Assembly: GCA_050740975.1 (NCBI GenBank)
Contig: JBOIEE010000334.1
Location: 1-42,007, forward strand
Origin: Gammaproteobacteria bacterium
GTDB lineage: Bacteria; Pseudomonadota; Gammaproteobacteria; JBOHHR01
Length of the DNA: 42,007 nt
Direction: 5' to 3'
Both the position numbers and the translations under genes were made by a program. Positions 782 through 30,702 of the stretch are shown here, in pieces. Position 1 is the stretch's first letter; every line of letters starts with the position of its first letter. The notes beneath the pieces were generated by a model that did no database searches, had not been told where the DNA came from, and was given only the letters and a program-made list of their open reading frames with translations.

Positions 782-975
782 TTACCGAACCCTACCCTGT
801 TGGTCAGCGGGCTGGTGGATTAAGCTCGTTCGGTTTGATCTTATGAGGGAGCAGCTCTTTTCGATTTGCGCGACGGCGCTGGCCTTAGGTAGCTCGGTAA
901 AAATGTGGCGTAAGTAGTGATAAGGCTCGAGGCCGTTGGCTTTCGCGGTTTCGATAAGGCTAATAATCAATAAAG
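782..975 (-). mobile_element. IS66-family transposase C-terminal remnant
   Basis: The C-terminus of ORF 782-1129(-) reads SLIETAKANGLEPYHYLRHIFTELPKA..IE, the characteristic IS66 transposase tail. No upstream transposase body or inverted repeats are present. Confidence 0.6.
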
Positions 976-1128
976 TTAAACGATTACTGGTGCTCTCATA
1001 AGGCTCACCGCGGAGGCCGAGGCAGTTCGCGGATGCTTGGGATAAAAGGAAGTCTCGAAACGGGCCAGAGGCTGGTAAGTAGGACAAGAGAGTAGAATAG
1101 GGGGGAGAATAGAATTTGGAGACTTGCA

Positions 1129-1362
1129 ATGGCCTTATCTGTACACGAAATCGAGAAGGAGATTCACGCCTTGAGCACCGAAGACAAAACGACGCTGCTT
1201 CGCGCTCTAATTGCTGATCTGGACGACGAGGTGGATGAAAATATCGAACAATTGTGGCTAGAGGAGGCGCAACGCCGATACCGAGAATTGGAGGAGGGAC
1301 TGGTAAAGGCTGTTCCAGCGGAAGAGGTCTTTAGACGAGCGCGCGCAAAGCTCAAGAAATGA
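1129..1362 (+). CDS. Type II antitoxin, 'putative addiction module component' (TIGR02574-like) family
   Basis: 77 aa with L..EDK..L...L...LD......E..W.EEA.RR..E...G motifs. GGAG lies 9 nt upstream. A 4-nt ATGA overlap joins it to the downstream toxin. Confidence 0.85.
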   Translation: MALSVHEIEKEIHALSTEDKTTLLRALIADLDDEVDENIEQLWLEEAQRRYRELEEGLVKAVPAEEVFRRARAKLKK

Positions 1363-1655
1363 GAGCTGAGTTGCACCCGGAGGCGGAGAAAGAATTCATT
1401 GAGGCATCCCTCTTCTACGATTTGCAACTCCTGGGACTGGGCGAAGGGTTCATATGCGAGATGGAGCGAGTAACAAAGCTGCTTGTGGAAAAACCCGAGA
1501 TCGGGGCGCGGATTGATGAAACTTTTCGCCGAATGCTTTTGAATCGATTTCCGTATTCACTGATCTATAGCCTCGAACCGGAGAGGATCTGGATCGTTGC
1601 GGTAGCCCACCAACGCCGTCGCCCCGGTTATTGGCGCAGTCGAATTGAACGCTAA
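1359..1655 (+). CDS. Type II toxin, RelE/ParE family
   Basis: 98 aa with AE.E..EA..FY.....GLG..F......LL...P..G......R..L..FPYSLIY......I.I.AVAH.RR.P.YW, typical of ParE/RelE plasmid-stabilisation toxins. Translationally coupled to the antitoxin. Confidence 0.85.
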   Translation: MRAELHPEAEKEFIEASLFYDLQLLGLGEGFICEMERVTKLLVEKPEIGARIDETFRRMLLNRFPYSLIYSLEPERIWIVAVAHQRRRPGYWRSRIER

Positions 1656-3627: not shown

Positions 3628-3916
3628 CTTAGAGCTTGTGAAAAAATCTACTGCGCTCGGAACCTCGCGTTCCGGCGGTGCTCGGACCAATCCGCCGGGA
3701 GCGGATTGGGAACGCAACAGGCGGCCCGCAGGGTGCGCGCCAGGGATGGTGCGCAACAATCCTCATGTATTTCAGTATACACTCCGGTTGCTCGTCTCAT
3801 CCTTGAGACTCGCCCCTGCGAGGCTTGCACGCCGTTTCGTTCCCGACGAAACGGTCCTGCGCGCCGGCGGAACGCGACTTTCCTTCGCTCGCGACGATTT
3901 TTTCACAAGCTCTTAG
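3628..3916. repeat. ~290-bp element bounded by terminal inverted repeats (MITE-like / long imperfect hairpin)
   Basis: agagcttgtgaaaaaatc (3631-3648) is the perfect 18-bp reverse complement of gattttttcacaagctct (3896-3913). Further imperfect complementarity inside (cgcgttccggcgg.. / ..ccgccggcggaacgcg). Lies in the hemC-gshB divergent intergenic region. Confidence 0.5.
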
Positions 3917-3948
3917 GGGCGTTCGGCGTTAGCACGGTGGTCTTTAGG

Positions 3949-4117
3949 CTAGGAGCCTGTCGGACTTAGGGAACCGTAGCGAGGCGCGTGGAAAATCGAG
4001 GGCAGATTTTCGATCATTTGAGGCGAATAGTGGTAACTATTTAACAAAAATGATCGGAAATATGGACCGATTTCCCACCGCCGCAGTAGGTTCTTCCTAA
4101 GTCCGACAGGCTCCTAG
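3949..4117. repeat. ~170-bp element bounded by perfect 22-bp terminal inverted repeats (MITE-like hairpin)
   Basis: ctaggagcctgtcggacttagg (3949-3970) vs cctaagtccgacaggctcctag (4096-4117). Inner arms are also complementary (ggaaaatcg../..cgatttcc, gatcattt/aaatgatc), so the whole unit can fold as one long hairpin. Confidence 0.6.
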
Positions 4118-4159
4118 GCTCGCGCAATGACTTTTGCCCTCTAGATTGGATAACCCAAG

Positions 4160-11239: not shown

Positions 11240-12340
11240 ATGCAACGACGTTACACATATCTTCAAGCGTTACTGTTTTTTGGCTTAGTGTTTCATGCCT
11301 TGTCTGCCCACGCGGATCATCTTTCGGGGGGACTTGGGATCGAGCAGACGGCCCCCATCAACACCGAAAGCGCTGTGCCCTTGAAACAAGGCTCATGGAT
11401 TGCGGGTGTGCGCACGGAATACGTTAATAACGATAGCTTTTCGGATCAGGAGCTCATCACCCTACGCGGGATCGGCATCAACCGGGATGGCGAGGCCGAT
11501 GAAGACCTGCATAGCATCGACTCCATATTAGGTGTCTCACTACGAGCCGCCTATGGTGTGACGGAAAACTTAACGGTAGGTTTTCGATTGCCTTATGTTC
11601 GGCGCGAGAATATCCGTGAGCCGGAAGAAGGACATGCCCATGGCGCGAATCCGATCGTCGTCCACGATATCGTCGAGCACGGAGACAGCGCCGGAATCGG
11701 TGACACCACCTTCTTTGGCCAATACCGGTTTTACCATGACGGGAGCAGCGATATCGCGGCCCTGTTCGGAGTCAAGACCCCGACCGGCGAGACGGGGGAA
11801 GAGGGCTTTGAAGGCGAGCACTTTGGCGGACGCTTTGTAACCGATGTGTTCCCAAGCGAAGAGGAAGAAGGACATCATCACCAAGGCACCCGCCTAGAGA
11901 CCCATCAGCAACCGGGCTCCGGTTCCTGGGACGGAATAGTTGGGGTCGCTTACAGCCGAAGCATAAGCCCGGTCAACTTTGATACGAGTGTTCTTTATAC
12001 CGTAGTCAGCGAAGGGTCTCAGGATACAGATCTCGGGGACATCTTTAACTACAACTTTGCGCTGTCGCATCCGACGAATGCTTTTGTTCCCTGCCAACCG
12101 TGCTCGTGGAACCTGGTGTTGGAGCTGAACGGCGAGTGGCGGGACAAGGAGGAGAGAGGAGATATCGAGATCGGCAACTCCGGCGGCCATGTGCTTTATC
12201 TCGCACCGGGGTTCCGCTTCATCGGCCCGGGTGGGTGGAATATGGCGCTCTCGGCCGGCTATCCGGTGGTCAACGATCTGAATGGCGATCAGTCTGAACC
12301 GGATTATCGAATCGTAGGCACGGTGAATTTCAACTTCTAA
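11240..12340 (+). CDS. Outer-membrane beta-barrel protein with His-rich loops (possibly MetA-pathway/transporter-like family)
   Basis: Signal peptide MQRRYTYLQALLFFGLVFHALSAHA. Alternating beta-strand pattern, GIGDTTFFGQYRF and FGVKTPTGE motifs, terminal ..VNFNF. His-rich inserts EEGHAHG and EEEEGHHHQG. AAGAGG RBS. Confidence 0.6.
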   Translation: MQRRYTYLQALLFFGLVFHALSAHADHLSGGLGIEQTAPINTESAVPLKQGSWIAGVRTEYVNNDSFSDQELITLRGIGINRDGEADEDLHSIDSILGVSLRAAYGVTENLTVGFRLPYVRRENIREPEEGHAHGANPIVVHDIVEHGDSAGIGDTTFFGQYRFYHDGSSDIAALFGVKTPTGETGEEGFEGEHFGGRFVTDVFPSEEEEGHHHQGTRLETHQQPGSGSWDGIVGVAYSRSISPVNFDTSVLYTVVSEGSQDTDLGDIFNYNFALSHPTNAFVPCQPCSWNLVLELNGEWRDKEERGDIEIGNSGGHVLYLAPGFRFIGPGGWNMALSAGYPVVNDLNGDQSEPDYRIVGTVNFNF

Positions 12341-12363: not shown

Positions 12364-13572
12364 ATGGCACGTTATACGAGGTTTGATCTACTGCATAGGC
12401 ATGATGGCGGAAGCCGCCGCACAGGGTTTCGTGCGCGAGCGTTTTCACTATTTGCGGTCCTATCTCTAGTGCTATGGGGCTGTGCCTCTGCACCGGTTGC
12501 CCCTAATGCTTCAGCGGCTGCGGCTTCCGGACTGATTGTTTCGGTGGCTTTCGCGCCCGACAGTCGCCTATGGCGGGTACGCGCCACAGCCGATCGGATT
12601 TATGTAGATTACTCAGACGATTTCGGAGTGAGCTATAGCGCGCCGATCACAGTGAATGAGACACCACAGCGGATCAGAGCGTTGCCAGAAGATCGGCCGG
12701 GGCTCGCAGCCGACAAATCGGGCCGTATCGCCGTGGTTTATTACGCCGAAGAGTCCCATGGCGTGGTTCCCTATTTCAGCTACTCACTGGATAGGGGCCA
12801 GCACTTCAGTTCACCGCGGCCTTTGACCACACCCGGATCCGAGGCCGAGCATGCGATGGTGAAGCTCGTGGCCGATGATAGGGATCGTTTCTACCTGTTC
12901 TGGTATGAGACTCGCGCACACGAGCCGGGCGCATCGCTTTACTATACGGTTAGCGACAAGCCTGAGATACTGCCTGTCCCCAACCGACGGATAACCGCTA
13001 CCCTGTGCGAATGCTGCCGGCTGGCGTTGGATTTTAATCGCGACCAACAGCCGGTACTATTGGCTCGGGTCATCTTTCCAGGAAGCGTCCGGGACCATGC
13101 GTTAATTGCACTCAACCCCGAGTCAACTCGGCGTGTGACTGACGACGACTGGTATATCGAAGCTTGTCCCAAGCACGGTCCGGCGCTCTCCATTGCTGCA
13201 GACGGTCGCTATCACATCGCCTGGTTTACCCAGGGCAAAAAACGGAAGGGCTTGTTCTACGCCTACGCGGATAACCTAGGACAGAGCTTCTCGCAACCCA
13301 AGCGTTTCGGTAACCCCAAATCCCTGCCCGAACACGCCGATGTCCTCGCGCTCGGAGATCGGGTAGTGCTCACTTGGAAGGAGTTCGATGGGCAACGGAC
13401 ACGACTCTTGGCGATGCAGTCCCGCGATCGCGGTAATACGTGGTTAGCAAGCAGTGTGATCGGAGAATCGAACAGCGGATCCGATCAGCCGGACCTCATC
13501 ACTAACGGCCAGCGTACGTTCGCGTCCTGGAGCGCTCTGGATAACGGCCATAGGCTCATTCCGATCCCGTAG
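12364..13572 (+). CDS. BNR/Asp-box repeat (sialidase-like beta-propeller) lipoprotein
   Basis: Lipobox LVLWGC. Four Asp-boxes: SDDFGVSY, SLDRGQHF, ADNLGQSF and SRDRGNTW. Confidence 0.7.
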   Translation: MARYTRFDLLHRHDGGSRRTGFRARAFSLFAVLSLVLWGCASAPVAPNASAAAASGLIVSVAFAPDSRLWRVRATADRIYVDYSDDFGVSYSAPITVNETPQRIRALPEDRPGLAADKSGRIAVVYYAEESHGVVPYFSYSLDRGQHFSSPRPLTTPGSEAEHAMVKLVADDRDRFYLFWYETRAHEPGASLYYTVSDKPEILPVPNRRITATLCECCRLALDFNRDQQPVLLARVIFPGSVRDHALIALNPESTRRVTDDDWYIEACPKHGPALSIAADGRYHIAWFTQGKKRKGLFYAYADNLGQSFSQPKRFGNPKSLPEHADVLALGDRVVLTWKEFDGQRTRLLAMQSRDRGNTWLASSVIGESNSGSDQPDLITNGQRTFASWSALDNGHRLIPIP

Positions 13573-13617
13573 GTTGAAGGAGGTGCGAATGATTTCGGGG
13601 AGCGAGGTGGGCGGAGG
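13566..13617 (+). repeat. Left 52-bp direct repeat (attL-like) of the islet
   Basis: cccgtaggttgaaggaggtgcgaatgatttcggggagcgaggtgggcggagg matches 18813-18864 at 50 of 52 positions. Contains the TAG stop of the BNR gene. Confidence 0.8.
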
Positions 13618-13639
13618 GGACATAAACTCGGTACTCGAC

Positions 13640-13808
13640 TGGTCATCCGTGGCGAGGAATTTCAGCTATGGAGACAGTAAACGTTTATCGGAAGCTACGT
13701 TGGACGCAGGGAGTGTCACATAGAATCCGACTGGCTGCTGATCTACAAGTTGGACCGGAACACATCCTCTTCGAGCGCACACGGTCGCACGCGGACTTAT
13801 TTAGAGAT
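13640..13808 (+). pseudogene. Multiply frameshifted YafQ/RelE-type toxin relic
   Basis: Frame fragments ..YVGRRECHIESDWLLIYKLD and ..PEHILFERTRSHADLF match the conserved C-terminal half of YafQ-family toxins (RECHI.PDWLLIYK...L.L.RTGSHSDLF) but sit in different frames. No partner antitoxin is present. Confidence 0.5.
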
Positions 13809-13925
13809 AACGCTGATTGAAACTAGGCCTGTGGGGTTAGATCCTATAGGTCATTTACGCGATCATATTGATTGCCTTATAGTTCAATATATGGCGTCTG
13901 GTTATATCTGCCTGTTGGATGAGAA

Positions 13926-16718
13926 ATGGCCAATACTGCAAACCCAATTACGTTCTTTCGCGGAGAGCCCTTCGAGTTGTCCCGGCCCGTGTCGAGCCGC
14001 TTTTTTGACAAGTTCGCTCAGAAATGGCGTCAACCGTTAGGAGAGGGAAGGCGGCCCCTCTTTGTGCTTGGCGCAGGAGTATCGCGCGCTGCATCTGTGC
14101 CAATGATGTCCGATATGCTTAGCCACCTAAGCAAGCTATTGGAAGAAGCGCAGCAGGACCAGACTACCGATAGTGCTCTAGGGGAAGCGCGCTTATACTC
14201 CGAACAAGCGATTGCAACGCGCGGTCGTACTGATTGTGCGCTGCTCTTTGGGGCGTTACAGGATTCGGAGAAACCAGAGGCAAGGGACGTATGGCGCACG
14301 TTCTGCCAGGACTTCATTTCTGGGGAGATTACCACTGATGCGCAACCGCCGGCGCATACCTCCCTATTCGAGGCCCAACCCACTGAGACGCACCAGTGGA
14401 TCGCAGATCTAGTAGTTACGTCTCAGGCGCAATGCATAAGTCTCAATTTCGATGGCCTCACCCGAAAAGCCATCGACAACATGCTCAGGAGCAAGAATGG
14501 ATCCGGTAAATGTGTGATCCTGGACACGGCTGAAAAGATAACGAACTTCATAGGCCGCGATCCAAGAAGCAATGAGGCAAAGCACCTGCGGTCTATAATC
14601 AAGCTGCGGGGAGACGTATTCTACGCCATCTGTGTTACGCCTGGCTGTCCTCTCTCAGAGATCCAGACTCCCGTTTATGACCTCCCGACCTCCGACCCAA
14701 AGCAGCGCCTAACGTGTCCTGAGTGCAAATGCCAGAGAAACCTCCAGATTGCGTTTCCGGGGCACCACGATAAAGAGCGGGAAAGCGAAGCGATTCTTGA
14801 CGCCGCATGGCGGTACCTAGTTCCGTCCACTTCATTGTTCATGATCATGGGCTTCAGTGGCGAATGGGATGGCAGCGTTGTCGAATTTGTTTTCTCGGCA
14901 GCACAACTGCTAAGCGTCCCAGTTATTGACGTCCGGATTAAACCGGACGAGGAGTCTTCGCATTACATTAAAGATATTTGGTGTCAGCGGTTCCCACGGG
15001 TAGAGTATCAGCCCATTTACTGCACTGCGGATGAATTCGCCACCCGCGCTGCAAACAATGTTAGTGCCAGGAATAACGCTGAGGTCATTGCAGTGGTCGG
15101 CTGCCCAGTCATAAAGCCTAAGCCCTTGCCCGCAGACCACATTTGGGACACCAGAGGGACAGACGTGCGTCCTATGATCGGTCAGATCTGCGCAGCCGAC
15201 GACTTTCGCAGTTTGGAGAACTACTCACAGTTAGGGCTTAAGACCTTCTGGTGGGGGGCGGTAGGGAGTTTCCAACTACACGACCGATATCACCACTCCA
15301 TTGGAACGATGCGAGTCGCTTCAAGATGGCATGGATGCCTCACGGATTGTGCTTTTTCGAATGACCTTTCAAGAGCAAGTGACAGAGAAAACGAATTCTT
15401 GGCTATTGCGGCATTGCTGCACGACTATGGACATCTCCCATTTTCACACTTGTTTGAAGAGATATTCGACGAGCTACATTGGACGACGGTGAATTCCTCG
15501 GGCAAACCATGGCACGAGGTCCTGACCCACAAAAAGATCCGCGAGCTGGTCGCCATGGATATCGCTGGTAAGCAAGATGCTGTTAAAATGTACACTGAAT
15601 ATCTCGGATTTACGGTCGATCAATTGCTCAGTTTGATAGATGGATGTCTTGGAAAGCCTTATCTCGACGCACTTGTTAATAGCCCCCTCGACGCAGACAA
15701 GATCGATTATGTATTTCGTGACCTCTACTTCCTTGAAATGGCGGGCAAGCTGGAACATAGAAGGCTTGGGAATAGCGTAGGAGATCCTATAGCGTGGCGA
15801 GATGATTTCTTTCGAGAACAAGAGCTATCCCCGGAGCAACTAATTCGTCTCAACGGCCGTTCTGCTTTAAGATTGCTGGAACTTCTCGAGACACGACGAA
15901 ATCTGTATTTTAAGTTTTACCTTTCTCCTGAAATGCGTGTGATGGAGCGGATTACGGCCTTCGTAATGACTAATTATCTCGCGCACGTCATATCAAGAAA
16001 GCTAGGTGATGAGATTCGAGATAGCGATCAGCCGTTCGAATACGATCACGGCGATCTGAAAGTTCGCCTCGCAACCGATAACATCCTTGGCAAGTACGAC
16101 AACGTGATGATCAACCACAGCACTAATAAGTATAAGGAGCTCCCCCTGTTGGGTGTGCTCCTGGAAGAGTTGCTGGAGGACGGGTTTCCGATTGACGATG
16201 TCCCGCGTGAGGTGCTCAAGAAACTTAAGGATACGCTGAATAGATTCCCGAAAGATCGAGACGAAGGCCCATTCGGGGTGACAGTAAGGGACGTATATAA
16301 GGATTTGCACGTTGGTGGACCGTATTATTTCGACTCGTCGCATGAAGGAAAGATTAGGGACATGGTTAGAGAACTAACCTTGCTCTATCAGGGTTCAGTG
16401 CTGTTCGATGTTGTTAAGACTCCGCGCTTCCTTGCTGGGGCAAAAACAAGAAGATATCGTCGCTTGTGGGCCAATGGAGAGGTTATCGGAGAGACGTTTC
16501 TAGTGCCGTCCATTAATCCAATGAAATGGACAGTCAAGACACGTGCCGCGGTTCCGTTAGGCGCTGTAGATTTCGGGCAACTCGAACGTCAGTACCTTCA
16601 GGTGATTGTCTTTGACCCGCTAGGTTATCCTACAAAGGCTCGTTTCGTTGACCAAGAGTTTCGGCGCAGATGCCGTGCGAGTGGCGTCGATTTTATGGAC
16701 ACAATTACGTCGAATTGA
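13926..16718 (+). CDS. Fusion protein: N-terminal sirtuin (SIR2)-like domain with Zn-ribbon, plus C-terminal SAMHD1/COG1078-type HD phosphohydrolase domain
   Basis: SIR2 motifs: GAGVS (aa 49-53), HQWIADL..ISLNFDGL (156-178), and Cys236/241/264/267. HD motifs: HDRYHHSIG (452-460), LLHDYGHLPFSH (497-508), DADKIDYVFRD (589-599). First ATG after an in-frame stop. 930 aa. Confidence 0.85.
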   Translation: MANTANPITFFRGEPFELSRPVSSRFFDKFAQKWRQPLGEGRRPLFVLGAGVSRAASVPMMSDMLSHLSKLLEEAQQDQTTDSALGEARLYSEQAIATRGRTDCALLFGALQDSEKPEARDVWRTFCQDFISGEITTDAQPPAHTSLFEAQPTETHQWIADLVVTSQAQCISLNFDGLTRKAIDNMLRSKNGSGKCVILDTAEKITNFIGRDPRSNEAKHLRSIIKLRGDVFYAICVTPGCPLSEIQTPVYDLPTSDPKQRLTCPECKCQRNLQIAFPGHHDKERESEAILDAAWRYLVPSTSLFMIMGFSGEWDGSVVEFVFSAAQLLSVPVIDVRIKPDEESSHYIKDIWCQRFPRVEYQPIYCTADEFATRAANNVSARNNAEVIAVVGCPVIKPKPLPADHIWDTRGTDVRPMIGQICAADDFRSLENYSQLGLKTFWWGAVGSFQLHDRYHHSIGTMRVASRWHGCLTDCAFSNDLSRASDRENEFLAIAALLHDYGHLPFSHLFEEIFDELHWTTVNSSGKPWHEVLTHKKIRELVAMDIAGKQDAVKMYTEYLGFTVDQLLSLIDGCLGKPYLDALVNSPLDADKIDYVFRDLYFLEMAGKLEHRRLGNSVGDPIAWRDDFFREQELSPEQLIRLNGRSALRLLELLETRRNLYFKFYLSPEMRVMERITAFVMTNYLAHVISRKLGDEIRDSDQPFEYDHGDLKVRLATDNILGKYDNVMINHSTNKYKELPLLGVLLEELLEDGFPIDDVPREVLKKLKDTLNRFPKDRDEGPFGVTVRDVYKDLHVGGPYYFDSSHEGKIRDMVRELTLLYQGSVLFDVVKTPRFLAGAKTRRYRRLWANGEVIGETFLVPSINPMKWTVKTRAAVPLGAVDFGQLERQYLQVIVFDPLGYPTKARFVDQEFRRRCRASGVDFMDTITSN

Positions 16719-16735
16719 CTAGCTCAGGAGGCGCA

Positions 16736-17842
16736 ATGGGAAACGTATCCTGGTTTACGTACGAATGTATTTTTGGATCCGTGCACCATCTGAAGGCAAT
16801 TGAATTTATTAATGAGAAGGAGAACCAAAGACTTGAGGGCTTTTACCGGGCACTTCCAAACGTCAGAGCGGAGGTATCTCCCGACGTTTCGAGCGCAATC
16901 GGCCGCTTCTTGACAACGAGTGAGATCTCCCTGGCAGATAACGAACGGCTAGAGCGGTGCTTGGCAGACCTGCTTATGAATAACATGCATCGATATCTTC
17001 GAGAAGAAGGTCCGGTTCTACTCGTGGAGGGACCCCCGCTCTCAAAACTGATTGGGCGCATTGGTTACCGGTACCCGCGCCCCGAAGTGACCATTGCGTT
17101 TGTCACAATTCGACCAGAATACCTACCCCAGCCTGGTGGGGCATCGGTGATGTCGGATGGTTGGAACGGTCCTTTCCCGGGGTTACAGGAAGATACGGTC
17201 CGAAGGACATATTTCCGATACAAACCAATTCCTATACGACTGGACATTTTCGCACAGGGATTGCAACGGTTCCGTCCGCTATGCAAAAAGGGAGGTGTCC
17301 CCATGGGCGTTACAGCAAAACTGAGGGCAATTTCTGAAGATGTCCTAAAGTTCGCGGATTATCTGAATCAGCGAGAGGCCCAAAGCCAGCCGAGATATAT
17401 TGCCGGACAACCGAAGAGGTTCACTCCTGTCGCAGACGAGGGTACGATCAATGAAAACTTAGCGGAGGCAGCGAGAGGTGGCAAGGCCGATGCTAGTAGC
17501 AAGAAGAGGGAACCTCGAACACCCAATCGGTCGACCGATCCATCAGTGGAGCGGGGAAAACGCGACCTCGTCAGGGCCCTCACCTCTGTTCCCGAGGACG
17601 CAATCCTCGATACGATCTTTGACAAAACGGACCGGCACATTAGGAAGGCTAACGGCGACCTGGTTAAGCAGTTTTTGGCAGAGAGGGGACTTGGAACAAT
17701 AGACGAAAAGCAGAACAAACAATTGTTGATATTTGTACAGAAAAGAATTATCGAGGAGCGCAAGGAGCGGCCATATAGATTGACTGTTCAGGACTTGGAA
17801 AGATGGTATGCAGAATTTAAGGGAGACGAGGGACGGAGCTAG
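16736..17842 (+). CDS. Hypothetical protein with no recognisable motif (middle gene of the operon)
   Basis: ATG at 16736 preceded by AGGAGG (16725-16730), 17 nt after the gene 1 stop. 368 aa, with a charged Lys/Arg/Glu-rich C-terminal third. Confidence 0.7.
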   Translation: MGNVSWFTYECIFGSVHHLKAIEFINEKENQRLEGFYRALPNVRAEVSPDVSSAIGRFLTTSEISLADNERLERCLADLLMNNMHRYLREEGPVLLVEGPPLSKLIGRIGYRYPRPEVTIAFVTIRPEYLPQPGGASVMSDGWNGPFPGLQEDTVRRTYFRYKPIPIRLDIFAQGLQRFRPLCKKGGVPMGVTAKLRAISEDVLKFADYLNQREAQSQPRYIAGQPKRFTPVADEGTINENLAEAARGGKADASSKKREPRTPNRSTDPSVERGKRDLVRALTSVPEDAILDTIFDKTDRHIRKANGDLVKQFLAERGLGTIDEKQNKQLLIFVQKRIIEERKERPYRLTVQDLERWYAEFKGDEGRS

Positions 17843-17844
17843 GC

Positions 17845-18732
17845 GTGCGCTATAGAAGCGAGCGAGTGCTAACCTTTTCACGCTATTGGGGTGCGCCACA
17901 CCCTGTCATCGCGATGGAGAGGGCCATCGACGCTGCTTTTCCCGACCTCGACCGAATGCAGCCACCAATCGATCTTCGGAAACTGGGAGAGCGTAGGGGT
18001 ATCAAAGTTGTCGAGCGCCCAATCGACGCTGATGGCCTTATTTTTCGGGCCGAAGATGAAGGATATGTAGTCGTCCTAAACACGCGTGCCCAAGAGGAGC
18101 GGCGGCGTTTTACCCTTGCACATGAGATTGCTCACACTTTTTTCTTTGACGCGGAAGGCTGCCGCGGCTATGAAACTACAGCGAGTCGCGGTGAAGTCAG
18201 ACGCGAGGTTGATCCAGAGGAAGAGCATTTATGCGATTATGGGGCAGCCAAGATCCTAATGCCTAAGGGATTAATCGCGCCGCTGCTCGACACATTTGGG
18301 CCAAGTGCCCATTTTGTTGTTCAGGTCGCGAGAACGTTCAAGGTGTCAATGCGGGCTAGTGCGCGGCATCTGGTTAAGATTAGCGATACAAAGATTGTAG
18401 TGGGATATTGGGAATATCGAGCCTCGCGTGGGCAGTTCGAGACATCGTGGGTAGAGGGGCGAGAGACCGCCAAAGGCAGAAGGGCGATGGCAGTGGGAAA
18501 AGACCAGCCAATATTCGACGACTTCCTAGCAGCGCAGGATTTTCGTGGTAGGAGATGGATGTCTTTGGGAGGGGACCTACAGCATTATTTTGTGGATGCA
18601 GTGTTCCTGAAGGGTACGCCGCGACGATGGCTTACTGAGATTGTGCTTGATCCCATCGCCGAGAGGGGGTTTGTGGGGCGATCGACGCGGATAGCAGGTT
18701 TAAGTGGCGAGGTTCCTGGCCACCTGCGTTAG
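17845..18732 (+). CDS. ImmA/IrrE-family (COG2856, peptidase M78-like) zinc metalloprotease
   Basis: HEIAH (aa 93-97, nt 18121-18135) followed by EEEHLCDYGAAKILMP, the family's third-ligand / FA..LLMP-like motif. GTG start 2 nt after the gene 2 stop (alternative ATG at 17914). I see no HTH domain. Confidence 0.8.
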   Translation: MRYRSERVLTFSRYWGAPHPVIAMERAIDAAFPDLDRMQPPIDLRKLGERRGIKVVERPIDADGLIFRAEDEGYVVVLNTRAQEERRRFTLAHEIAHTFFFDAEGCRGYETTASRGEVRREVDPEEEHLCDYGAAKILMPKGLIAPLLDTFGPSAHFVVQVARTFKVSMRASARHLVKISDTKIVVGYWEYRASRGQFETSWVEGRETAKGRRAMAVGKDQPIFDDFLAAQDFRGRRWMSLGGDLQHYFVDAVFLKGTPRRWLTEIVLDPIAERGFVGRSTRIAGLSGEVPGHLR

Positions 18733-18812
18733 CGCTCCCGCGGCGCTACAGTAAATGTCTGCCGTGTAACTACGGCGACCAAAGGTTCGGGCTTTCGCAT
18801 CGCGGCGAGCAC

Positions 18813-18864
18813 CCCGTAGGTTGGAGGAGGTGCGAATGATTTCGGGGGGCGAGGTGGGCGGAGG
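18813..18864 (+). repeat. Right 52-bp direct repeat (attR-like) of the islet
   Basis: cccgtaggttggaggaggtgcgaatgatttcggggggcgaggtgggcggagg. Flanking sequence on both sides is unrelated to that around the left copy. Confidence 0.8.
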
Positions 18865-18931
18865 AGCCGGTAGCCGCCCCCGGCCGAAGTTTGCGCTGTT
18901 TGGAAGTAAAGAGAGCGCGTCCGCCGGGCCC

Positions 18932-19057
18932 TCACGTTTTCACGGTTGTCACACGGCACGCCACAATTCCAAAGAGAACAATCGCGCCGCCAAGCGACTG
19001 CTGTACGCTAAAAGGTTCAGCCAACAGCACCCAGGCAAACACTGCGGCTGCGGCCGG
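18932..19057 (-). pseudogene. C-terminal relic of a DMT/EamA-family transporter
   Basis: Minus-strand 42 codons, PAAAAVFAWVLLAEPFSVQQSLGGAIVLFGIVACRVTTVKT*, match the last TM helix pattern of EamA transporters (..LGE..S..Q..GG..I..G). Preceded by an in-frame stop, with no gene body. Confidence 0.45.
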
Positions 19058-19101: not shown

Positions 19102-20580
19102 TCAGGCCCGCTGTCCGCCGCCGTTCCAAGCTAGCAGATTCAAGAACTCGCGGCGCGTCTTCGGGCCATGGGTGCGGAAGTGGGGGTCCGGTGCCTCGCG
19201 ATAAGCCAACCGCTCCTGGGCGATACCATCGCGCGCCGCGCGTTTTTTCATCTCATCGGCGCTGATAGGATAGGGCCGCAGTGCGTTCAGCCCGAATACC
19301 TTGGCACGCAGCTCGGGCGTGATCTCAAGGTAGCCGTGTTGCTCGCGAAGCTCGTTGGCGATTTGAAAGGTCCGGAAGGCCTGGATCTGGTCTTGCGGCG
19401 AGCCATACCAGATGGAATCGGTGCCCCACAACACGTTGTCCTGCCCGACATAGTTAAAGAGCTTGCCGAGCGCATGCGCCGCACTCTGCGGGTCGCGCAT
19501 CAAATAGCGCCAGGTACTACCGAGCTCCGCATACACGTTGCTGTTCGGCGGCAGGTCATTCTCGACGACGGTCTTGATTAACGAATCGATGCCTTCGTTG
19601 CGTGCGGGGTCGTAAGGCCCTTCGGCCTGGCCGGGCACGAATCCGGGGTGGTAGATAAGAAAGTTGACATCCGGGTAGCGCCTGGCGACGACACCGATGT
19701 CGTCGCACAGTGAATGCGCATAGGATTTCCGGCCGAAGGGAATACCCTTGTGTACGCAGATGTTCTTGATGCTGAGCTTGCGCGCCCGCTCGATGAAGGC
19801 CAGCCCCACCTCGTCACTCAGAAAAAAGCCCCGCCCCTCCGGGCCCCATTGGGTGTAGGTCTTCCAGGCAGACACCTTCCAGCGCTCGGCCAATTCGTCC
19901 ATGCCTTGCAGATCGCCGTCCTGATTCGGGTTCACGCGCCCGTGCAGGAGTAGCCTATGTGCGCCGCCCATCCTCTCCACGATCCGGGCCGTGGCTGCCG
20001 CTTCTTCGATGGCGAGAGGCTCGGCGTCGCGATGTGAGGGCACGAAGGACAGCACCATCATGTCCGTGTCGGAATCCAGAAAGACGTCTTTGATGAACTC
20101 CTCCTCGCCCAGGCACAGCAGGTAGCTGTGCTCACCCGGCCTATCGGCCAAGTGGCAACTTGCCTTGGGCGCCCACTTGAACCGTCCGCTGCCGGGCGGC
20201 TCATTTTTCAGCCATGCGCCCCTGGGATTCACGTAATGGCCCTGCACGTCGAAAATGAACTCGCTACCTTCAAGCGCTGCGGCCGCGACCTCCCGATCGA
20301 GGGCGGCTTCCTTGGCGACATCAAAGAACCCACCGCCACGCCCCGCGGCTGCATAGGCCGCGTTCATTGCGAGCAAGGTGGACGCCGCTCCACCGGCCGA
20401 GATCAAAAAATTCCGGCGCCCAACGCCGCAACGCTTGGCGTTCCCCGTGGCGGCCTCATGAGCCAGGCGCCGCGCCTGCCGGTGCACCGACTCAAGCGGT
20501 ATGGGGGCGAATTCGCCGTTGGTCGTGGTATCCAACTTGATGGGCAGGCGGCGCCCTTCGGGATCGTGTGGCTGAGTCAT
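19102..20580 (-). CDS. Amidohydrolase-family (metal-dependent TIM-barrel hydrolase) protein with Tat-type signal motif
   Basis: GRRNFLISAGGAASTLLAMNAAYAA twin-arginine motif at aa 54-78 of the track ORF. The body resembles Amidohydro_2-type hydrolases. The true start may be the internal GTG (VHRQARR..). Confidence 0.7.
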   Translation of the reverse strand: MTQPHDPEGRRLPIKLDTTTNGEFAPIPLESVHRQARRLAHEAATGNAKRCGVGRRNFLISAGGAASTLLAMNAAYAAAGRGGGFFDVAKEAALDREVAAAALEGSEFIFDVQGHYVNPRGAWLKNEPPGSGRFKWAPKASCHLADRPGEHSYLLCLGEEEFIKDVFLDSDTDMMVLSFVPSHRDAEPLAIEEAAATARIVERMGGAHRLLLHGRVNPNQDGDLQGMDELAERWKVSAWKTYTQWGPEGRGFFLSDEVGLAFIERARKLSIKNICVHKGIPFGRKSYAHSLCDDIGVVARRYPDVNFLIYHPGFVPGQAEGPYDPARNEGIDSLIKTVVENDLPPNSNVYAELGSTWRYLMRDPQSAAHALGKLFNYVGQDNVLWGTDSIWYGSPQDQIQAFRTFQIANELREQHGYLEITPELRAKVFGLNALRPYPISADEMKKRAARDGIAQERLAYREAPDPHFRTHGPKTRREFLNLLAWNGGGQRA

Positions 20581-20707: not shown

Positions 20708-21309
20708 ATGCAAGAAATCGCGAGCGACATCTTCACCTGGTCTTGGTTTTCCGAGCCCCACGGCTACGATTTCAACGGCCACTTCATTCGCCACTCGGAG
20801 GGTAACCTTTGCATCGACCCGGTTCAGCCCAGCGAAGAAGACCTGGAGACGATCACGCGGCTAGGGGTCGCGCAGATCCTGCTCACCAACCGCAACCACA
20901 CGCGTGCGGCCAAGTTGGTGCGGCTGCGCACTGGGGCAAAAGCGGCCATCCACCCGGATGACGCGCACCACGCCCGTAGCCAGGGGGCCGAGATCGATGA
21001 GGCGTTGCGGGTTGGCGAACAAATAGGTCCGCTCGAGGTGATCGGCGTCCCGGGGAAGTCGCCGGGTGAGGTCGCATTCTACTGGCGGGCGCGTCGGGTC
21101 CTGATCGTGGGAGATGCGGTGATCGGCAATCCGCTCGGACGCTGCGGACTGCTCCGGGAGCAGGTCATGGGGATCCGGTGCGTTTGAGGCAAAGCGTGCG
21201 TAACTTGCTGGATCTGGACTTCGACACGCTGCTTGTGGGAGACGGCGTATCCATTCTCCAGGGGGCGAAGGACGGGCTTAGGGCGCTGGTGGATAGGTTT
21301 CCGGATTGA
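20708..21309 (+). pseudogene. MBL-fold metallo-hydrolase, frameshifted near its 3' end (or a sequencing indel)
   Basis: ORF 20708-21187 stops early. The conserved tail GDPVRLRQSVRNLLDLDFDTLLVGDGVSILQGAKDGLRALVDRFPD* continues in the -1 frame from the GGGG run at 21169-21172 to 21309. The 602-nt span is not a multiple of 3. Confidence 0.7.
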
Positions 21310-21511: not shown

Positions 21512-21742
21512 ATGGGTGCTACCTTTGAAGAACTGGAAAAGCAAGCCCGAGCGTTGAGCCCGAAAGAGAAAGCTGCCCTTGCACGCATTCTCATTGATGA
21601 GCTAGATACCTCGGTCGACCCGGACGCCGAAGAGCTGTGGATTGAAGAAGCTCAGCGGCGGTATGACGCCTTTATAAGGGGCGAGCTTCAGGACCTCCCC
21701 GGTGACGAGGTAATGCGTAGGGTTCGTAGCCGCCTCAAATGA
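21512..21742 (+). CDS. Type II antitoxin, same TIGR02574-like family as 1129-1362
   Basis: LS.KEKA.LA..LI.ELD.....D.E.LW.EEAQRRY......G aligns with the 1129-1362 product. ATGA overlap with the truncated toxin. Confidence 0.8.
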   Translation: MGATFEELEKQARALSPKEKAALARILIDELDTSVDPDAEELWIEEAQRRYDAFIRGELQDLPGDEVMRRVRSRLK

Positions 21743-21802
21743 TCGGCTATCGGTATCTTCCTCCGGCGGAGGAAGAAATGACCGAAGCATCCCTCTGGGG
21801 GA
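21739..21802 (+). pseudogene. 5' stub of a ParE/RelE toxin gene
   Basis: YRYLPPAEEEMTEASLW resembles AELHPEAEKEFIEASLFY of the intact toxin. Homology ends at ~21802, where unrelated duplicated sequence begins. Confidence 0.5.
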
Positions 21803-21897
21803 TTTTTGACTGTGGAAGACGGGATCGATGGAATCGAACGATGGACAATGGAGAAGCCCCTTGGATGTCTCCGAAGGAATGCGACAATTTCGGTACC
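21803..21897 (+). repeat. Diverged duplicate of the 5' region of the decarboxylase gene (copy of 41665-41757)
   Basis: tttttgactgtgg..gggatcgatggaatcgaa..ggatgtctcc..ggtacc is shared with 41665-41757. The minus-frame translations of both contain CPSFDSIDP. Confidence 0.6.
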
Positions 21898-22146
21898 TCA
21901 ACACGGACTTCGCTAAATTTTGTTTCACGTTTGCTCGGTGAATTATTTACATCACAATCCCACTTAACCTTGATACACTAGCGACGTTTAGGTGGATCAA
22001 TGATTCCTTAGAAAAAACGCATTATTTCCTCCCCCCTCATGGGCTCCAAAGCGACTTTATTAAATTCTTTTCAGACCTCCTAGGCGTGGGAGGGATTTAA
22101 GGGGGAGGGAGCATTCTAGAAGCATAATTTCGTGGAGGTCTAAAAA

Positions 22147-23628
22147 ATGCCCCAGAAGAAAAGTCTCATTCTAATCCTATTGACCGGCTCTTTGGCTTTG
22201 TTGATGGCGGGTTGTCCACAGCCACCAGGACCCCCGGAAATAAAGATCACCACGTCCTCGCCGTTGCCGCAGGGCAAGGTGGGGGAACGCTATAAAGCCC
22301 GATTTATGGCGACCGGTGGACAGGCGCCGTATACGTGGTCAGGCGGTCCCCCGGCAGGTTTAGGCTTAAGCCTGAAGGCCGATGGTAAACTAACGGGGAC
22401 ACCCACAAAGGCGGGTAGCTTTAAGTTTGACGTCAAGGTGACCGACTACGCGAATCGGTCTGTCACGAAGAACTTCCAGCTCAAAGTCAAGGTCGTCGAT
22501 GGCCGTTGTGCGATCACGACCACCTCTTCGTTGCCCAACGGGACGGTAGGGCAGACTTATGGGCCGGTCACCCTGCAGGCGAGTAGTGGTTGCAAACCTC
22601 CGCTGACCTGGTCGGTGGGCGCGGGGGCACTGCCTCCGGGCTTAACGCTGAACGCCCAAAGCGGTGTCATCGGTGGAACGCCCACTCAGGCGGGCACCTT
22701 CAACTTTACCATCAAGGTGACCGACAGCACCGGACAATCTGACACTAATGGCTTGCAGATCACAATTACCACAAACGGCCCGGAGTGTGAGATCGCGACC
22801 TCCTTGCTGCCGAACGGGACGGTGAACCAGTCTTATCCGGCGGTAACGCTGCAGACGAGGAATTGCACGCCACCGCTGACCTGGTCGGTGAGCGCAGGGG
22901 CCCTGCCTCCGGGCTTAAGGTTGAACGCCCAAGCCGGGGTTATCGACGGGACCCCAAGTCAGGCGGACACCTTCAACTTTGCCGTCAGGGTGAGCAGCGC
23001 AGGCCAGTTGGACACCCAAGACCTCCAGATCACGATAGGGCCGCCGGTCGCGGTTTGTGAGATCACGACCACCTCACCCTTGCCTGACGGGAGGGTAAAC
23101 CAGCCTTACCCGCCGCAAACCTTGCGCACGACGGGTTGCACGGCGCCGCTGACCTGGTCGGTGAGTGCGGGGGCACTGCCTCCGGGCTTAAACCTGAACG
23201 CACAAACGGGTGTCATCGGCGGCACAGCCACTGGGGACGGCACCTTCAACTTTACCGTTAGGGTGACCGACAGCGCGAGTCCGGCCCAGTCCGACACCGA
23301 AGGCTTTCGGATTGTGATCGAAGGTCGGGTATGTGGAACCCATACGGTAAGTATGAATAATCTTCAATTTATACCGCGCACATTGACCGTAAGGGCTTGT
23401 GAGACAGTGAATTGGGTGCATAATCAACCGGGTGTTCCCCATACTGTGACAAGTGATACCGGCGTATTCGAAAATGGAACAGTGGCTAATCCTATGGTGT
23501 TCCAGCAAACCTTCTCTCATACCTTTGCTAACCCTGGGACATTCCCCTATCACTGTAGGATCCATGGGGCGCCAGGTGGAAATCCAGCCCTAATGACCGG
23601 AAGTATCACGGTAAATCCTAATCCGTAG
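22147..23628 (+). CDS. Lipoprotein with four Ig-like (He_PIG/cadherin-like) repeats and a C-terminal type-1 copper cupredoxin domain
   Basis: Signal and lipobox LALLMAGC. Repeats carry LP.G.V.Q.Y....L...G...PLTWS...GALPPGL.LN...G.I.GTP...GTFNF...VTDS. C-terminal HTVTSD...YHCRIHG...........M gives the His/Cys/His/Met ligand set. Confidence 0.8.
   Translation: MPQKKSLILILLTGSLALLMAGCPQPPGPPEIKITTSSPLPQGKVGERYKARFMATGGQAPYTWSGGPPAGLGLSLKADGKLTGTPTKAGSFKFDVKVTDYANRSVTKNFQLKVKVVDGRCAITTTSSLPNGTVGQTYGPVTLQASSGCKPPLTWSVGAGALPPGLTLNAQSGVIGGTPTQAGTFNFTIKVTDSTGQSDTNGLQITITTNGPECEIATSLLPNGTVNQSYPAVTLQTRNCTPPLTWSVSAGALPPGLRLNAQAGVIDGTPSQADTFNFAVRVSSAGQLDTQDLQITIGPPVAVCEITTTSPLPDGRVNQPYPPQTLRTTGCTAPLTWSVSAGALPPGLNLNAQTGVIGGTATGDGTFNFTVRVTDSASPAQSDTEGFRIVIEGRVCGTHTVSMNNLQFIPRTLTVRACETVNWVHNQPGVPHTVTSDTGVFENGTVANPMVFQQTFSHTFANPGTFPYHCRIHGAPGGNPALMTGSITVNPNP
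22492..23328 (+). repeat. Three tandem ~93-codon intragenic repeats, conserved at the DNA level
   Basis: The core ccgctgacctggtcggtg occurs at 22600, 22873 and 23146 (spacing 273 and 273 nt), each followed by the near-identical g.gc.gggg.c.ctgcctccgggcttaa. Confidence 0.8.
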
Positions 23629-23797
23629 AAAACGGTGTAGCGGTTATCCAGGGTCCACTTGCAGGGTGAAGGTCTTATGATCCCTATGCGGTGGACCCTG
23701 GAACGCCGGCCCAGTTAGAACGGGAAGAGAAGAGGCACCAGTGCCCCTGACACTAAAAGAGGGTTTGCCTGTGCATCTTGCAAAGAGGAGGGAAATA

Positions 23798-28474: not shown

Positions 28475-28482
28475 ATGCCCTG

Positions 28483-30123: not shown

Positions 30124-30143
30124 ACGCCGTGGCAGGTACCCTG

Positions 30144-30662: not shown

Positions 30663-30702
30663 AGAGACTATTTCTCACTAAACCTGGAGATATTGGCAGG
30701 CT

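What the first reader, a model, noticed from the sequence alone, without database searches (positions are those of the whole stretch)
13566..18864. 5.3-kb lower-GC islet bounded by 52-bp direct repeats, inserted exactly at the stop codon of the BNR lipoprotein gene
Seen: the 52-mer at 13566-13617 recurs at 18813-18864 with 2 mismatches, while the sequence immediately outside each copy is unrelated. The left copy contains the TAG stop (13570-13572) of the BNR gene. My 60-nt spot counts inside the islet (lines 14401, 16081, 17701) gave 47%, 43% and 35% GC, against 60% in lines 12481 and 19201 outside it. Content from left to right: a decayed YafQ/RelE-type toxin, then the three-gene operon. Just beyond the right repeat lies a 42-codon relic of a DMT/EamA transporter. 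Inference: this is an attL/attR-like target duplication left by site-specific insertion of a small mobile islet. No integrase or recombinase is present, so the element is either decayed or mobilised in trans.
Basis: partly seen in the sequence, partly recalled or inferred. Interest (0 to 1): 0.75.

Follow-up and report, generated by a model that had tools for sequence, protein, structure and literature searches.

The report
Integrase-less defence islet with 52-bp repeats
A 5.2-kb piece of foreign DNA carrying a very rare three-gene candidate anti-phage module sits right after a gene's stop codon, bracketed by two copies of a 52-bp host sequence that related genomes without the insert carry only once; the insertion is real, but the islet encodes no enzyme that could have moved it.

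Summary
The 52-mer occurs exactly twice in the window (13566-13617 and 18813-18864, 2 mismatches). The left copy contains the BNR gene's TAG. The 5,195 bp between the copies are compositionally foreign: GC 0.516 against 0.583, below every same-size window elsewhere.

Four contigs from relatives (BNR 86-88% identical) lack the islet. Three show BNR, one 52-mer copy and the same EamA relic. The 52-mer is therefore native target sequence that was duplicated on insertion.

The occupied state appears in two further assemblies, so it is not an assembly artefact.

The mechanism is not settled. The window has no integrase, transposase, terminal inverted repeats, dif site, attC hairpin or tRNA gene. 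The left inner end cuts a YafQ toxin gene.

The relic predates the insertion.

The cargo is a conserved operon of three genes:
- a SIR2-like domain (weakly supported) fused to a SAMHD1-type dNTPase;
- a protein with no family match and a weak EndoV/PIWI-like fold;
- a CapP/IrrE-type metallopeptidase.

The operon is very rare. One homologous operon on another contig is again flanked by ~90-bp repeats and again has no integrase.

Verdict: a real, ordinary kind of islet with an unusual cargo and an unexplained insertion mechanism.

The parts
12364..13572 (+). BNR/sialidase-like lipoprotein gene. This is the target gene, and its last 4 nt plus the TAG lie in the left repeat.
   Evidence: ORF. Weak BNR_2 Pfam hit. 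Homologues are named sialidase family protein.
13566..13617 (.). Left copy of the 52-bp direct repeat (attL-like).
   Evidence: It is homologous to the single copy in L002, L153 and L154.
13681..13820 (+). Relic of a YafQ/RelE-type toxin gene. It is 5'-truncated and frameshifted, and no antitoxin gene is present.
   Evidence: YafQ_toxin positions 49-88 of 88, E 1.8e-12.
13854..13883 (+). Promoter-like site in an AT-rich stretch about 45 nt upstream of the first cargo gene.
   Evidence: 9 of 12 consensus match only; not evidence of function. GC is 0.39 at 13800-13899.
13926..16718 (+). 930-aa fusion protein. The N-terminal ~390 aa form a Rossmann-type domain with SIR2-like GAGxS/NFDG motifs and a Cys4 ribbon. 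The C-terminal ~500 aa form a SAMHD1/EF1143-type HD dNTP triphosphohydrolase.
   Evidence: SIR2 membership is weak.
16736..17842 (+). 368-aa protein with no family match (an alternative upstream start is at 16670). It has a conserved core and a weak EndoV/PIWI-like fold.
17845..18732 (+). 295-aa Peptidase_M78 (IrrE/ImmA/CapP-type) zinc metallopeptidase with a HEIAH motif.
   Evidence: 7.4e-16; PADLOC capP 5.8e-23; PDB 8slm, 3dte.
18813..18864 (.). Right copy of the 52-bp direct repeat (attR-like).
   Evidence: The right junction is confirmed in an independent Logan contig, L151.
18932..19057 (-). C-terminal relic of an EamA/DMT transporter gene. It is part of the old right flank, not of the islet.
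   Evidence: The same relic is present at the empty sites.
19102..20580 (-). Amidohydrolase_2 gene, the first intact gene of the right flank.

Best explanation
About 5.2 kb of horizontally acquired DNA was inserted into the short spacer between the stop codon of the BNR-like gene and an already decayed EamA gene. The insertion happened in the lineage of this uncultured gammaproteobacterium. The inserted DNA carries a toxin-gene relic and an intact three-gene candidate anti-phage operon.

The insertion left one copy of a 52-bp native sequence on each side. The most likely route (inferred, not shown) is a Campbell-type integration. In that route a circular intermediate carrying a copy of this 52-bp sequence recombined with the chromosomal copy. 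The recombinase was not encoded in what remains. Either the element lost it by deletion, which would fit the truncated toxin gene at the left inner end, or it acted in trans.

What remains is a non-autonomous islet resembling a cis-mobilizable element. It can probably still be lost by recombination between the two repeats.

Its cargo most likely acts as an abortive-infection module. The large protein would deplete dNTPs through its SAMHD1-like HD domain, and possibly NAD+ through its SIR2-like domain. The 368-aa protein and the CapP/IrrE-like protease would serve as sensor or regulator. This function is inferred from domain content and neighbourhood only.
For: Shown:
- The repeat is exact at the stated coordinates and is not a chance match.
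- Empty sites exist. L002, L153 and L154 (BNR 86% identical) read BNR stop, one 52-mer homologue, then the same right flank with the EamA relic.
- L152 (BNR 88% identical) keeps the full upstream gene order from hemC to BNR, has no islet, and retains only the first ~27 nt of the 52-mer.
- The start of the 52-mer also resembles the BNR-tlpA junction in the more distant L003 and L004. The repeat is therefore host sequence.
- The islet is foreign by GC, GC3 and tetranucleotide usage.
- The occupied state is not an artefact. L001 (GCA_975376085.1) is 99.75% identical to the window and has both repeats with the same two mismatches. L151 (SRR27067775) spans the right junction.
- Only 2 of the 56 differences between L001 and the window fall in the islet, which makes up 23% of the aligned length. 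This is compatible with recent arrival.
- No recombinase domain was found in the ORFs scanned in the window.

Support for an att-type route:
- The repeat begins 4 nt before the stop codon, so the target gene stays intact.
- On contig L061 a 46%-identical copy of the same operon is flanked by ~90-nt direct repeats (84-89% identical). These repeats are the 3' half of an XRE-type HTH gene. The left copy is intact. The right copy is a displaced, frameshifted fragment whose protein-level similarity runs to the stop codon. This is the classic signature of an element that brings a surrogate 3' end for its target gene.

Cargo:
- The three-gene order is conserved in L061, L062, L065, L066, L067 and L147.
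- The HD half resembles SAMHD1 and EF1143.
- The protease matches PADLOC capP and the IrrE structures.
- TA genes lie beside the operon in L147 and here.
Against: - No integrase lies in the islet or the window, and no cognate element was found. The 19-nt core of the 52-mer has no exact match in 2.9 million viral contigs. The islet DNA has no match in the plasmid or phage collections.
- The 52-mer has no inverted-repeat core. The inner ends share no arm-type repeats above chance.
- The left inner end lies inside a truncated toxin gene. That is what capture of a random fragment would give. Under the att model it needs an extra deletion ending exactly at the repeat.
- The second half of the 52-mer is specific to this lineage and is not conserved in L152. 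An incoming element would not be expected to carry a 96% match to it unless it had lived in this lineage before.
- L147 has the operon with no flanking repeats.
- The defence function is untested.
- SIR2 membership of the N-terminal domain is weak.
Confidence: 0.5

Rival explanations
1. The insertion was not site-specific. A linear fragment of foreign DNA was captured at a chromosomal break, or by another illegitimate or replicative event. The 52-bp duplication was made on the spot by fill-in of a long staggered cut. No att site or integrase was ever involved.
For: - The left inner end is a 5'-truncated toxin gene with no antitoxin, as expected for an arbitrary fragment end.
- There are no terminal inverted repeats, no arm-type repeats and no inverted-repeat core in the 52-mer.
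- The two copies are nearly identical, and the second half of the 52-mer is lineage-specific host sequence. An in-situ duplication explains this without a donor that already carried the sequence.
- No recombinase is present in the window.
Against: - To my knowledge no bacterial insertion process is known to give 52-bp target duplications routinely. Transposases give 2-15 bp.
- The repeat edge sits 4 nt before a stop codon so that the gene stays intact, which suggests a targeted site or strong selection.
- The parallel case L061 has diverged repeats (84-89%) in which the left copy completes a gene. That pattern fits an element-borne surrogate end better than a duplication made in place.
Confidence: 0.25
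2. The islet is old at this locus and was vertically inherited. The 'empty sites' in relatives are secondary losses by homologous recombination between the two repeats.
For: - Recombination between 52-bp direct repeats would leave exactly one copy, as seen in L002, L153 and L154.
- The two repeat copies already differ at 2 of 52 positions, and both differences are shared by two strains.
Against: - The islet is still far from host composition (GC 0.516 against 0.583; GC3 0.53-0.55 against 0.61-0.80).
- It shows less between-strain variation than its flanks (2 of 56 differences).
- It is absent from both sister lineages sampled (the L152 type and the L002 type), and from L003 and L004, which carry a different gene there.
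- In any case this rival does not explain how the repeats arose.
Confidence: 0.1
3. The 52-mer is a dispersed, multi-copy REP-like or MITE-like repeat, and the islet merely lies between two copies.
For: The window and its relatives do contain dispersed short repeats, for example the 3628-3916 element that also lies at both ends of L002.
Against: - There are only two copies in 42 kb, and there is no hairpin or palindrome.
- In the other fetched loci the 22-nt core occurs only in L001, at the two orthologous places.
- Relatives carry a single homologous copy at exactly this position, with both flanks collinear.
- There are no exact matches in viral contigs.
Confidence: 0.04
4. Assembly artefact: a small circular replicon sharing the 52-mer with the chromosome was threaded into the chromosomal contig.
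For: A loop in an assembly graph would produce exactly an 'insertion flanked by repeats'.
Against: - Three separate assemblies agree (window, L001, L151).
- The longest exact stretch shared by the two copies is 23 nt. That is too short to join k=31 or longer assembly graphs (my reasoning about assembler behaviour, not tested here).
- L151 reads continuously from islet DNA through the right copy, with both right-copy variants, into the chromosome.
Confidence: 0.02

Closest known systems
Integrase-type genomic islands and integrative elements flanked by att-like direct repeats at the 3' end of a gene. Pipolins are an example described as defence islands flanked by direct repeats (bioRxiv 10.1101/2024.05.22.595293).
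   Same: - Foreign composition.
- Defence and toxin-antitoxin cargo.
- Insertion at the very end of a gene that stays intact.
- Direct repeats tens of bp long that are single-copy at the empty site.
   Different: - No integrase and no tRNA target.
- Only 5.2 kb long.
- One inner end lies inside a truncated gene.
- The repeated sequence is a poorly conserved intergenic or pseudogene stretch rather than a conserved gene end.
Cis-mobilizable elements (CIMEs) and other decayed or non-autonomous islands. These are bounded by att sites but lack recombination and transfer genes and are mobilised by a related element's integrase (from my own knowledge of the Streptococcus ICESt literature; not checked here).
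   Same: Two att-like repeats with no recombinase between them. The cargo is adaptive genes only.
   Different: No cognate integrase-bearing element using this site was found. Mobility is not shown.
Defence systems that deplete NAD+ or dNTPs: SIR2-HerA and DSR (bioRxiv 10.1101/2021.12.14.472415 and 10.1101/2023.11.13.566805, listed), and the bacterial dGTPase defence (PADLOC model hit).
   Same: - A SAMHD1-type HD dNTPase domain with a SIR2-like N-terminal domain.
- Distant relatives of the fusion protein are paired with a HerA-like ATPase (L063, L075).
   Different: - Both domains are fused in one 930-aa protein.
- The partners here are a 368-aa protein of unknown family and an M78 peptidase, not HerA.
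- The canonical SIR2 His is replaced (KLRGD motif).
- No Pfam SIR2 model is matched.
CapH-CapP, the DNA-damage-responsive regulators of immune operons (bioRxiv 10.1101/2022.04.27.489752 and 10.64898/2026.05.16.725639).
   Same: The third gene is an M78/IrrE-type metallopeptidase. Its best PADLOC match is capP (5.8e-23), and it matches the IrrE-orthologue structure 8slm.
   Different: - No CapH-like HTH repressor gene is adjacent here or in L147. Only L061 has an HTH gene upstream.
- The peptidase is the last gene of the operon rather than part of an upstream regulator pair.
Short prokaryotic Argonaute systems with SIR2 effectors (SPARSA type).
   Same: A SIR2-like effector lies next to a protein whose predicted fold weakly resembles PIWI/EndoV. 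The Foldseek hits include SPARDA short pAgo and TtAgo (E ~1e-4).
   Different: - TM-scores are low (0.2-0.39) and the model has a mean pLDDT of 65.
- No MID domain or APAZ region was identified.
- The effector's C-terminal half is a complete SAMHD1 fold.

Membership tests
Integrase-type genomic island | Flanking direct repeats that are one copy at the unoccupied site | tested here: met
Integrase-type genomic island | Integrase or recombinase gene next to one att site | tested here: not met
   No recombinase domain in the islet or in the ORFs scanned across the 42-kb window. The 368-aa protein has no recombinase motifs or family hits.
Integrase-type genomic island | Atypical base composition relative to the host | tested here: met
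Integrase-type genomic island | Insertion in a tRNA gene or at the 3' end of a gene, with the gene restored | tested here: met
   The repeat starts 4 nt before the BNR stop codon and the gene is intact. No tRNA gene is present.
Integrase-type genomic island | Excision to a circle or a strain-level presence/absence polymorphism | not testable with these tools
   Needs read mapping or PCR. All three sequences from this species are occupied.
Cis-mobilizable element (CIME) | att-like repeats with no recombination or transfer genes between them | tested here: met
Cis-mobilizable element (CIME) | A cognate integrase-bearing element that uses the same att sequence | tested here: inconclusive
   No exact match of the core in viral contigs, and no similarity of the islet to plasmid or phage records.
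Xer-dependent element (IMEX) | Flanking dif-like 28-bp sites | tested here: not met
   No dif-like site in the window at up to 3 mismatches. Only the first 11 nt of GGTGCGAATGA resemble a XerC arm (by eye).
Integron cassette | attC site, an imperfect palindrome that folds as a hairpin | tested here: not met
   The 52-mer does not fold on either strand (z-scores 0.62 and -0.22).
DDE transposon / IS | Terminal inverted repeats, a short fixed target duplication and a transposase | tested here: not met
   15 of 60 matches between the two ends, which is the chance level. There is no transposase, and the duplication is 52 bp.
REP-like dispersed repeat | Many copies per genome, usually palindromic | tested here: inconclusive
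   Two copies in 42 kb, no palindrome, and single orthologous copies in relatives. A whole-genome count was not possible.
SAMHD1/EF1143-type HD dNTP triphosphohydrolase | HD-domain metal ligands (H...HD...D) and the SAMHD1 catalytic-core fold | tested here: met
   - Invariant H457, H499-D500 and D589/D591.
- Profile hits to EF1143 (8e-25) and SAMHD1.
- Foldseek TM-score about 0.6 relative to the target.
SIR2 (defence-associated sirtuin) | A match to SIR2 models, with the catalytic Asn and His | tested here: inconclusive
   - Only weak PADLOC SIR2 hits (E ~5e-3) over residues 42-82.
- No Pfam SIR2 hit in any of 10 family members.
- No PDB hit by sequence.
- The NFDG motif is present, but the usual His position reads KLRGD.
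- One homologue is annotated by JGI as a SIR2 family protein.
CapH-CapP regulator pair | M78 peptidase with HExxH | tested here: met
CapH-CapP regulator pair | Adjacent HTH repressor (CapH) as the substrate | tested here: not met
   No HTH gene in the islet and none upstream in L147. Present only in L061.
Short prokaryotic Argonaute system | MID-PIWI protein partnered with an APAZ-domain effector | tested here: inconclusive
   Weak fold hits of the 368-aa protein to EndoV and PIWI. The effector's C-terminal half is SAMHD1-like, not APAZ.

The most novel reading that the evidence does not exclude
This three-gene module may belong to a family of integrase-less defence cassettes. Such cassettes would insert at the 3' ends of host genes and leave unusually long (about 50-90 bp) duplications of the target, by a mechanism not yet described. 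Candidate mechanisms are a trans-acting recombinase with host-specific sites, or a break-repair or replicative capture process. Two independent, differently located cases support this reading: this window, and contig L061.
Probability: 0.1. Interest if true: 0.8.

Novelty: new variant of a known kind. Interest (0 to 1): 0.45.

Why it matters
As a mobile-element finding this is a well-documented small example of how defence genes arrive in a chromosome. The insertion, the target duplication and matching empty sites are all visible. It also shows that an islet can carry clear att-like repeats and yet no recombinase.

If the same pattern recurs around this operon, as it does once in L061, it would point to an unrecognised way of moving defence cassettes.

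The cargo may be the more valuable part. It fuses a SAMHD1-type dNTPase to a SIR2-like domain and pairs that protein with an unknown protein and a CapP/IrrE-like protease. The protease has no HTH partner, which suggests direct proteolytic control of an immune effector rather than transcriptional control. The operon is very rare: 12 clusters at E <= 1e-30 among 1.84 billion representative proteins. To my knowledge it is undescribed.

Tried and rejected
- dif/Xer site: no dif-like sequence.
- Integron attC or REP hairpin: the 52-mer does not fold.
- Transposon: no terminal inverted repeats and no shared arm motifs above chance.
- tRNA target: none in the window or in 19 related loci.
- Known RNA element in the repeat: Rfam finds only a group II intron fragment at 55-125.
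- Plasmid or phage origin: no DNA similarity of the islet to 72,556 plasmid or 50,697 phage records. Protein-level hits cover the HD domain only. No relative of the fusion protein was found in viral contigs. The 52-mer core is absent from viral contigs.
- Repeats around other copies of the operon: L061 has them. L147 and L067 do not. L075 has multi-copy GC-rich repeats on both sides rather than a simple pair. The 24-nt match in L065 lies inside the coding region and is chance. L062, L065, L066, L148 and L149 are too short to judge.
- The 216-aa ORF of the L061 islet as a hidden recombinase: no Pfam or PHROG match.
- An exact-protein look-up of the window's BNR protein found nothing.
- Literature search over the whole library failed four times. 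Only bioRxiv could be searched. One DOI look-up failed.
- SIR2 assignment: could not be confirmed by Pfam, NCBIfam or PDB sequence searches.

Full report
**1. Observation**

The 52-nt sequence at 13566-13617 recurs at 18813-18864 with two A/G differences. These are the only two matches in the 42-kb window at up to 3 mismatches, and 100 shuffles gave none. The bases just outside each copy are unrelated.

The 402-aa BNR/sialidase-like ORF ends at 13572, so its TAG lies inside the left copy.

Over the whole 5,195-bp interior, GC is 0.516 against 0.583 for the rest of the window. That is lower than all 265 same-size windows elsewhere (minimum 0.556). The tetranucleotide distance is 0.284 against a maximum of 0.197 elsewhere. 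GC3 of the three cargo genes is 0.53-0.55 against 0.61-0.80 in 15 neighbouring genes.

The stated content is also correct:
- A frameshifted YafQ-type toxin relic matches only positions 49-88 of the 88-position Pfam model (E 1.8e-12).
- Three co-directional genes follow it.
- Beyond the right repeat lies a 41-codon EamA C-terminal relic on the minus strand.

**2. Is it an insertion?**

Yes. A scan of one genome per species with the BNR protein gave 59 loci. Protein look-ups gave further contigs.

Three contigs from a relative with 86% BNR identity (L002, L153, L154) read BNR stop codon, one homologue of the 52-mer, then 'AGCCGGTGGCC' and the EamA relic. This is the window's right flank joined directly to its left flank through a single repeat copy.

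A second relative (L152, 88% identity) keeps the whole upstream gene order from hemC to BNR. It has no islet, and only the first ~27 nt of the 52-mer are followed by unrelated DNA and phoX.

In more distant genomes (L003, L004) a TlpA-like gene starts 3 nt after the BNR stop. The junction there still resembles the start of the 52-mer.

The 52-mer is therefore native chromosomal sequence, and the islet lies between two copies of it. Read on the other strand, it continues the reading frame of the old EamA gene.

The EamA relic is equally decayed at the empty sites.

The DNA downstream of BNR differs in every lineage sampled, so this is a rearrangement-prone spot.

**3. Is it an artefact?**

No. 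L001 (GCA_975376085.1) is 99.75% identical to window 4079-26717. It has the same islet and both repeats with the same two differences. A Logan contig from another run (L151, SRR27067775) reads continuously from islet DNA through the right copy into the chromosome.

The two copies share at most 23 identical bases in a row. By my reasoning about assemblers, that is too short to mislead a k=31 assembly.

Only 2 of the 56 differences between L001 and the window lie in the islet, which is 23% of the aligned length. The other differences cluster in short tracts.

**4. How did it get there?**

This is not resolved. Nothing that could move DNA was found:
- no integrase, transposase or other recombinase domain in the ORFs scanned in the islet or the rest of the window;
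- no tRNA gene;
- no dif-like site;
- no hairpin in the repeat on either strand;
- no terminal inverted repeats, and no short motifs shared by the two inner ends above chance.

The islet DNA has no match in the plasmid or phage collections. The repeat core has no exact match in viral contigs.

Two lines of evidence pull in different directions.

For an att-type route, meaning a circle recombining across a shared sequence:
- The repeat starts 4 nt before the stop codon and leaves the gene intact.
- On contig L061 a 46%-identical copy of the same operon is again bracketed by direct repeats of ~90 nt at 84-89% identity.
- Those repeats are the 3' half of an XRE-type HTH gene. The left copy completes an intact gene. 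The right copy is a 5'-truncated, frameshifted fragment that stays similar at the protein level up to the stop codon.
- That is the usual signature of an element that brings a substitute 3' end for its target gene. L061 also has no recognisable recombinase.

Against the att-type route:
- The window's left inner end lies inside a toxin gene that lacks its first ~27 or more codons and its antitoxin gene. An arbitrary fragment end would look like this.
- The second half of the 52-mer is lineage-specific sequence that an incoming element would not be expected to carry.

I rate the att-type or Campbell route, with a lost or trans-acting recombinase, as most likely (about 0.5). An in-place duplication during non-site-specific capture comes second (about 0.25). 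Ancestral presence with secondary loss (0.1), a dispersed repeat (0.04) and an assembly artefact (0.02) are unlikely.

**5. Cargo**

The operon has a promoter-like site at 13854-13883 in an AT-rich stretch.

*Gene 1 (930 aa).* Its C-terminal ~500 residues form a complete SAMHD1/EF1143-type dNTP triphosphohydrolase.
- The H...HD...D residues are invariant.
- The family profile hits EF1143 at 8e-25 and SAMHD1 at about 1e-16.
- The AlphaFold model has a mean pLDDT of 78, and Foldseek gives a TM-score of about 0.6 relative to the target.

The N-terminal ~390 residues have GAGxS and NFDG motifs and a Cys4 ribbon, and give weak PADLOC SIR2 hits (E ~5e-3). No Pfam, NCBIfam or PDB sequence match to SIR2 was obtained for any family member. 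The usual His position reads KLRGD. 'SIR2-like' is therefore a lead, not a result.

*Gene 2 (368 aa).* It matches no family in Pfam, NCBIfam, PADLOC or PHROGs.
- It has a strongly conserved core.
- The model has a mean pLDDT of 65. Its best Foldseek matches are endonuclease V and the PIWI domains of short and long Argonautes, at E ~1e-4 but with low TM-scores.

*Gene 3 (295 aa).* It is an M78 metallopeptidase.
- Its best PADLOC match is CapP (5.8e-23), and it matches the IrrE structures.
- CapP normally cleaves an adjacent HTH repressor, CapH, when single-stranded DNA appears.
- No HTH gene accompanies it here or in L147. It may therefore act on one of the two other proteins. This is inference.

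*Conservation and rarity.*
- The three-gene order is conserved in L061, L062, L065, L066, L067 and L147.
- More distant relatives pair the fusion protein and the gene-2 protein with a HerA-like ATPase instead (L063, L075).
- The fusion protein has 13 homologues (E <= 3e-49) among 5.8 billion clusters.
- The gene-2 profile finds 12 clusters at E <= 1e-30 among 1.84 billion representative proteins.
- In L147 the operon lies among Fic, VapBC and Phd toxin-antitoxin genes. There it has no flanking repeats.

**6. Comparison with known systems and verdict**

The islet behaves like a small genomic island or a cis-mobilizable remnant.
- Features met: flanking repeats that are single-copy at the empty site, foreign composition, and insertion at a gene's 3' end.
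- Feature failed: an integrase.
- Families tested and excluded: transposon, integron cassette and Xer-dependent element.

The cargo resembles known NAD+- and dNTP-depletion defences and CapP-regulated operons, but it matches none in architecture.

I rate the islet as an ordinary kind of feature that has been well verified, with an unexplained insertion mechanism and an undescribed, very rare cargo. Interest is 0.45. The novelty is 'new variant of a known kind', mainly because of the cargo and the integrase-less structure with long repeats. The islet alone would be a new member of a known kind.

Noticed in passing
window 55-125: 3' domain of a group II intron (Rfam RF00029, 53.5 bits). The rest of the intron would lie upstream of the window.
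   Followed up: no
window 782-1129 (-), 663-773 and 37934-38045: An ORF that looks by eye like the C-terminal part of an IS66-family transposase. Next to it is a ~110-nt sequence that recurs 37 kb away at 91-93% identity.
   Followed up: no
window 3628-3916 and 3946-4120; L002 56-269 and 4576-4701: A MITE-like ~290-bp element with 21-nt terminal inverted repeats, and a second inverted-repeat pair beside it. Copies of this element lie at both ends of contig L002, flanking the OMP-BNR genes there.
   Followed up: partly
window 1129-1655 and 21512-21981: Two toxin-antitoxin pairs of the same type (Unstab_antitox-like antitoxin plus a small toxin). The second toxin ORF looks degenerate. A 122-nt repeat at 493-614 recurs at 1408-1529 and overlaps the first pair.
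   Followed up: no
window 11599-11716, 12702-12870, 21100-21234: The differences between the window and the 99.75%-identical L001 cluster in three short tracts, one of them inside the BNR gene. This suggests recombination tracts between strains.
   Followed up: partly
downstream of the BNR gene in L003/L004, L152, L153, L002 and the window: Every lineage has different DNA after the BNR gene:
- L003 and L004: a TlpA-like gene.
- L152: phoX and a CHAD gene.
- L153: the EamA relic, then ribE and ribD.
- L002: the EamA relic, then a MITE-like element.
- Window: the islet, the EamA relic, then the amidohydrolase gene.
The site is a rearrangement hotspot.
   Followed up: partly
window about 18876-18948: A 73-nt segment between the right repeat and the EamA relic that is absent from L002. 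Its origin is unknown.
   Followed up: no
L147 4560-6693: Repeats of 30-63 nt (89-97% identical, partly inverted) bracket the Fic and VapBC toxin-antitoxin cassettes next to the homologous operon. The arrangement recalls a cassette array.
   Followed up: no
L063 10001-14943; L075 1006-5892: A variant of the system in which the SIR2-like/HD fusion protein and a relative of the gene-2 protein are followed by a HerA-like (DUF87) ATPase instead of the M78 peptidase. In L075 the AT-rich operon is flanked on both sides by multi-copy GC-rich repeats.
   Followed up: partly
window 22147-31893: A cluster of large secreted proteins with He_PIG Ig-like repeats and C-terminal cupredoxin domains, plus a 1577-aa protein. 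They contain internal 273-nt tandem repeats, and a 75-nt stretch at 23494-23568 recurs at 31771-31845 (72% identical).
   Followed up: no
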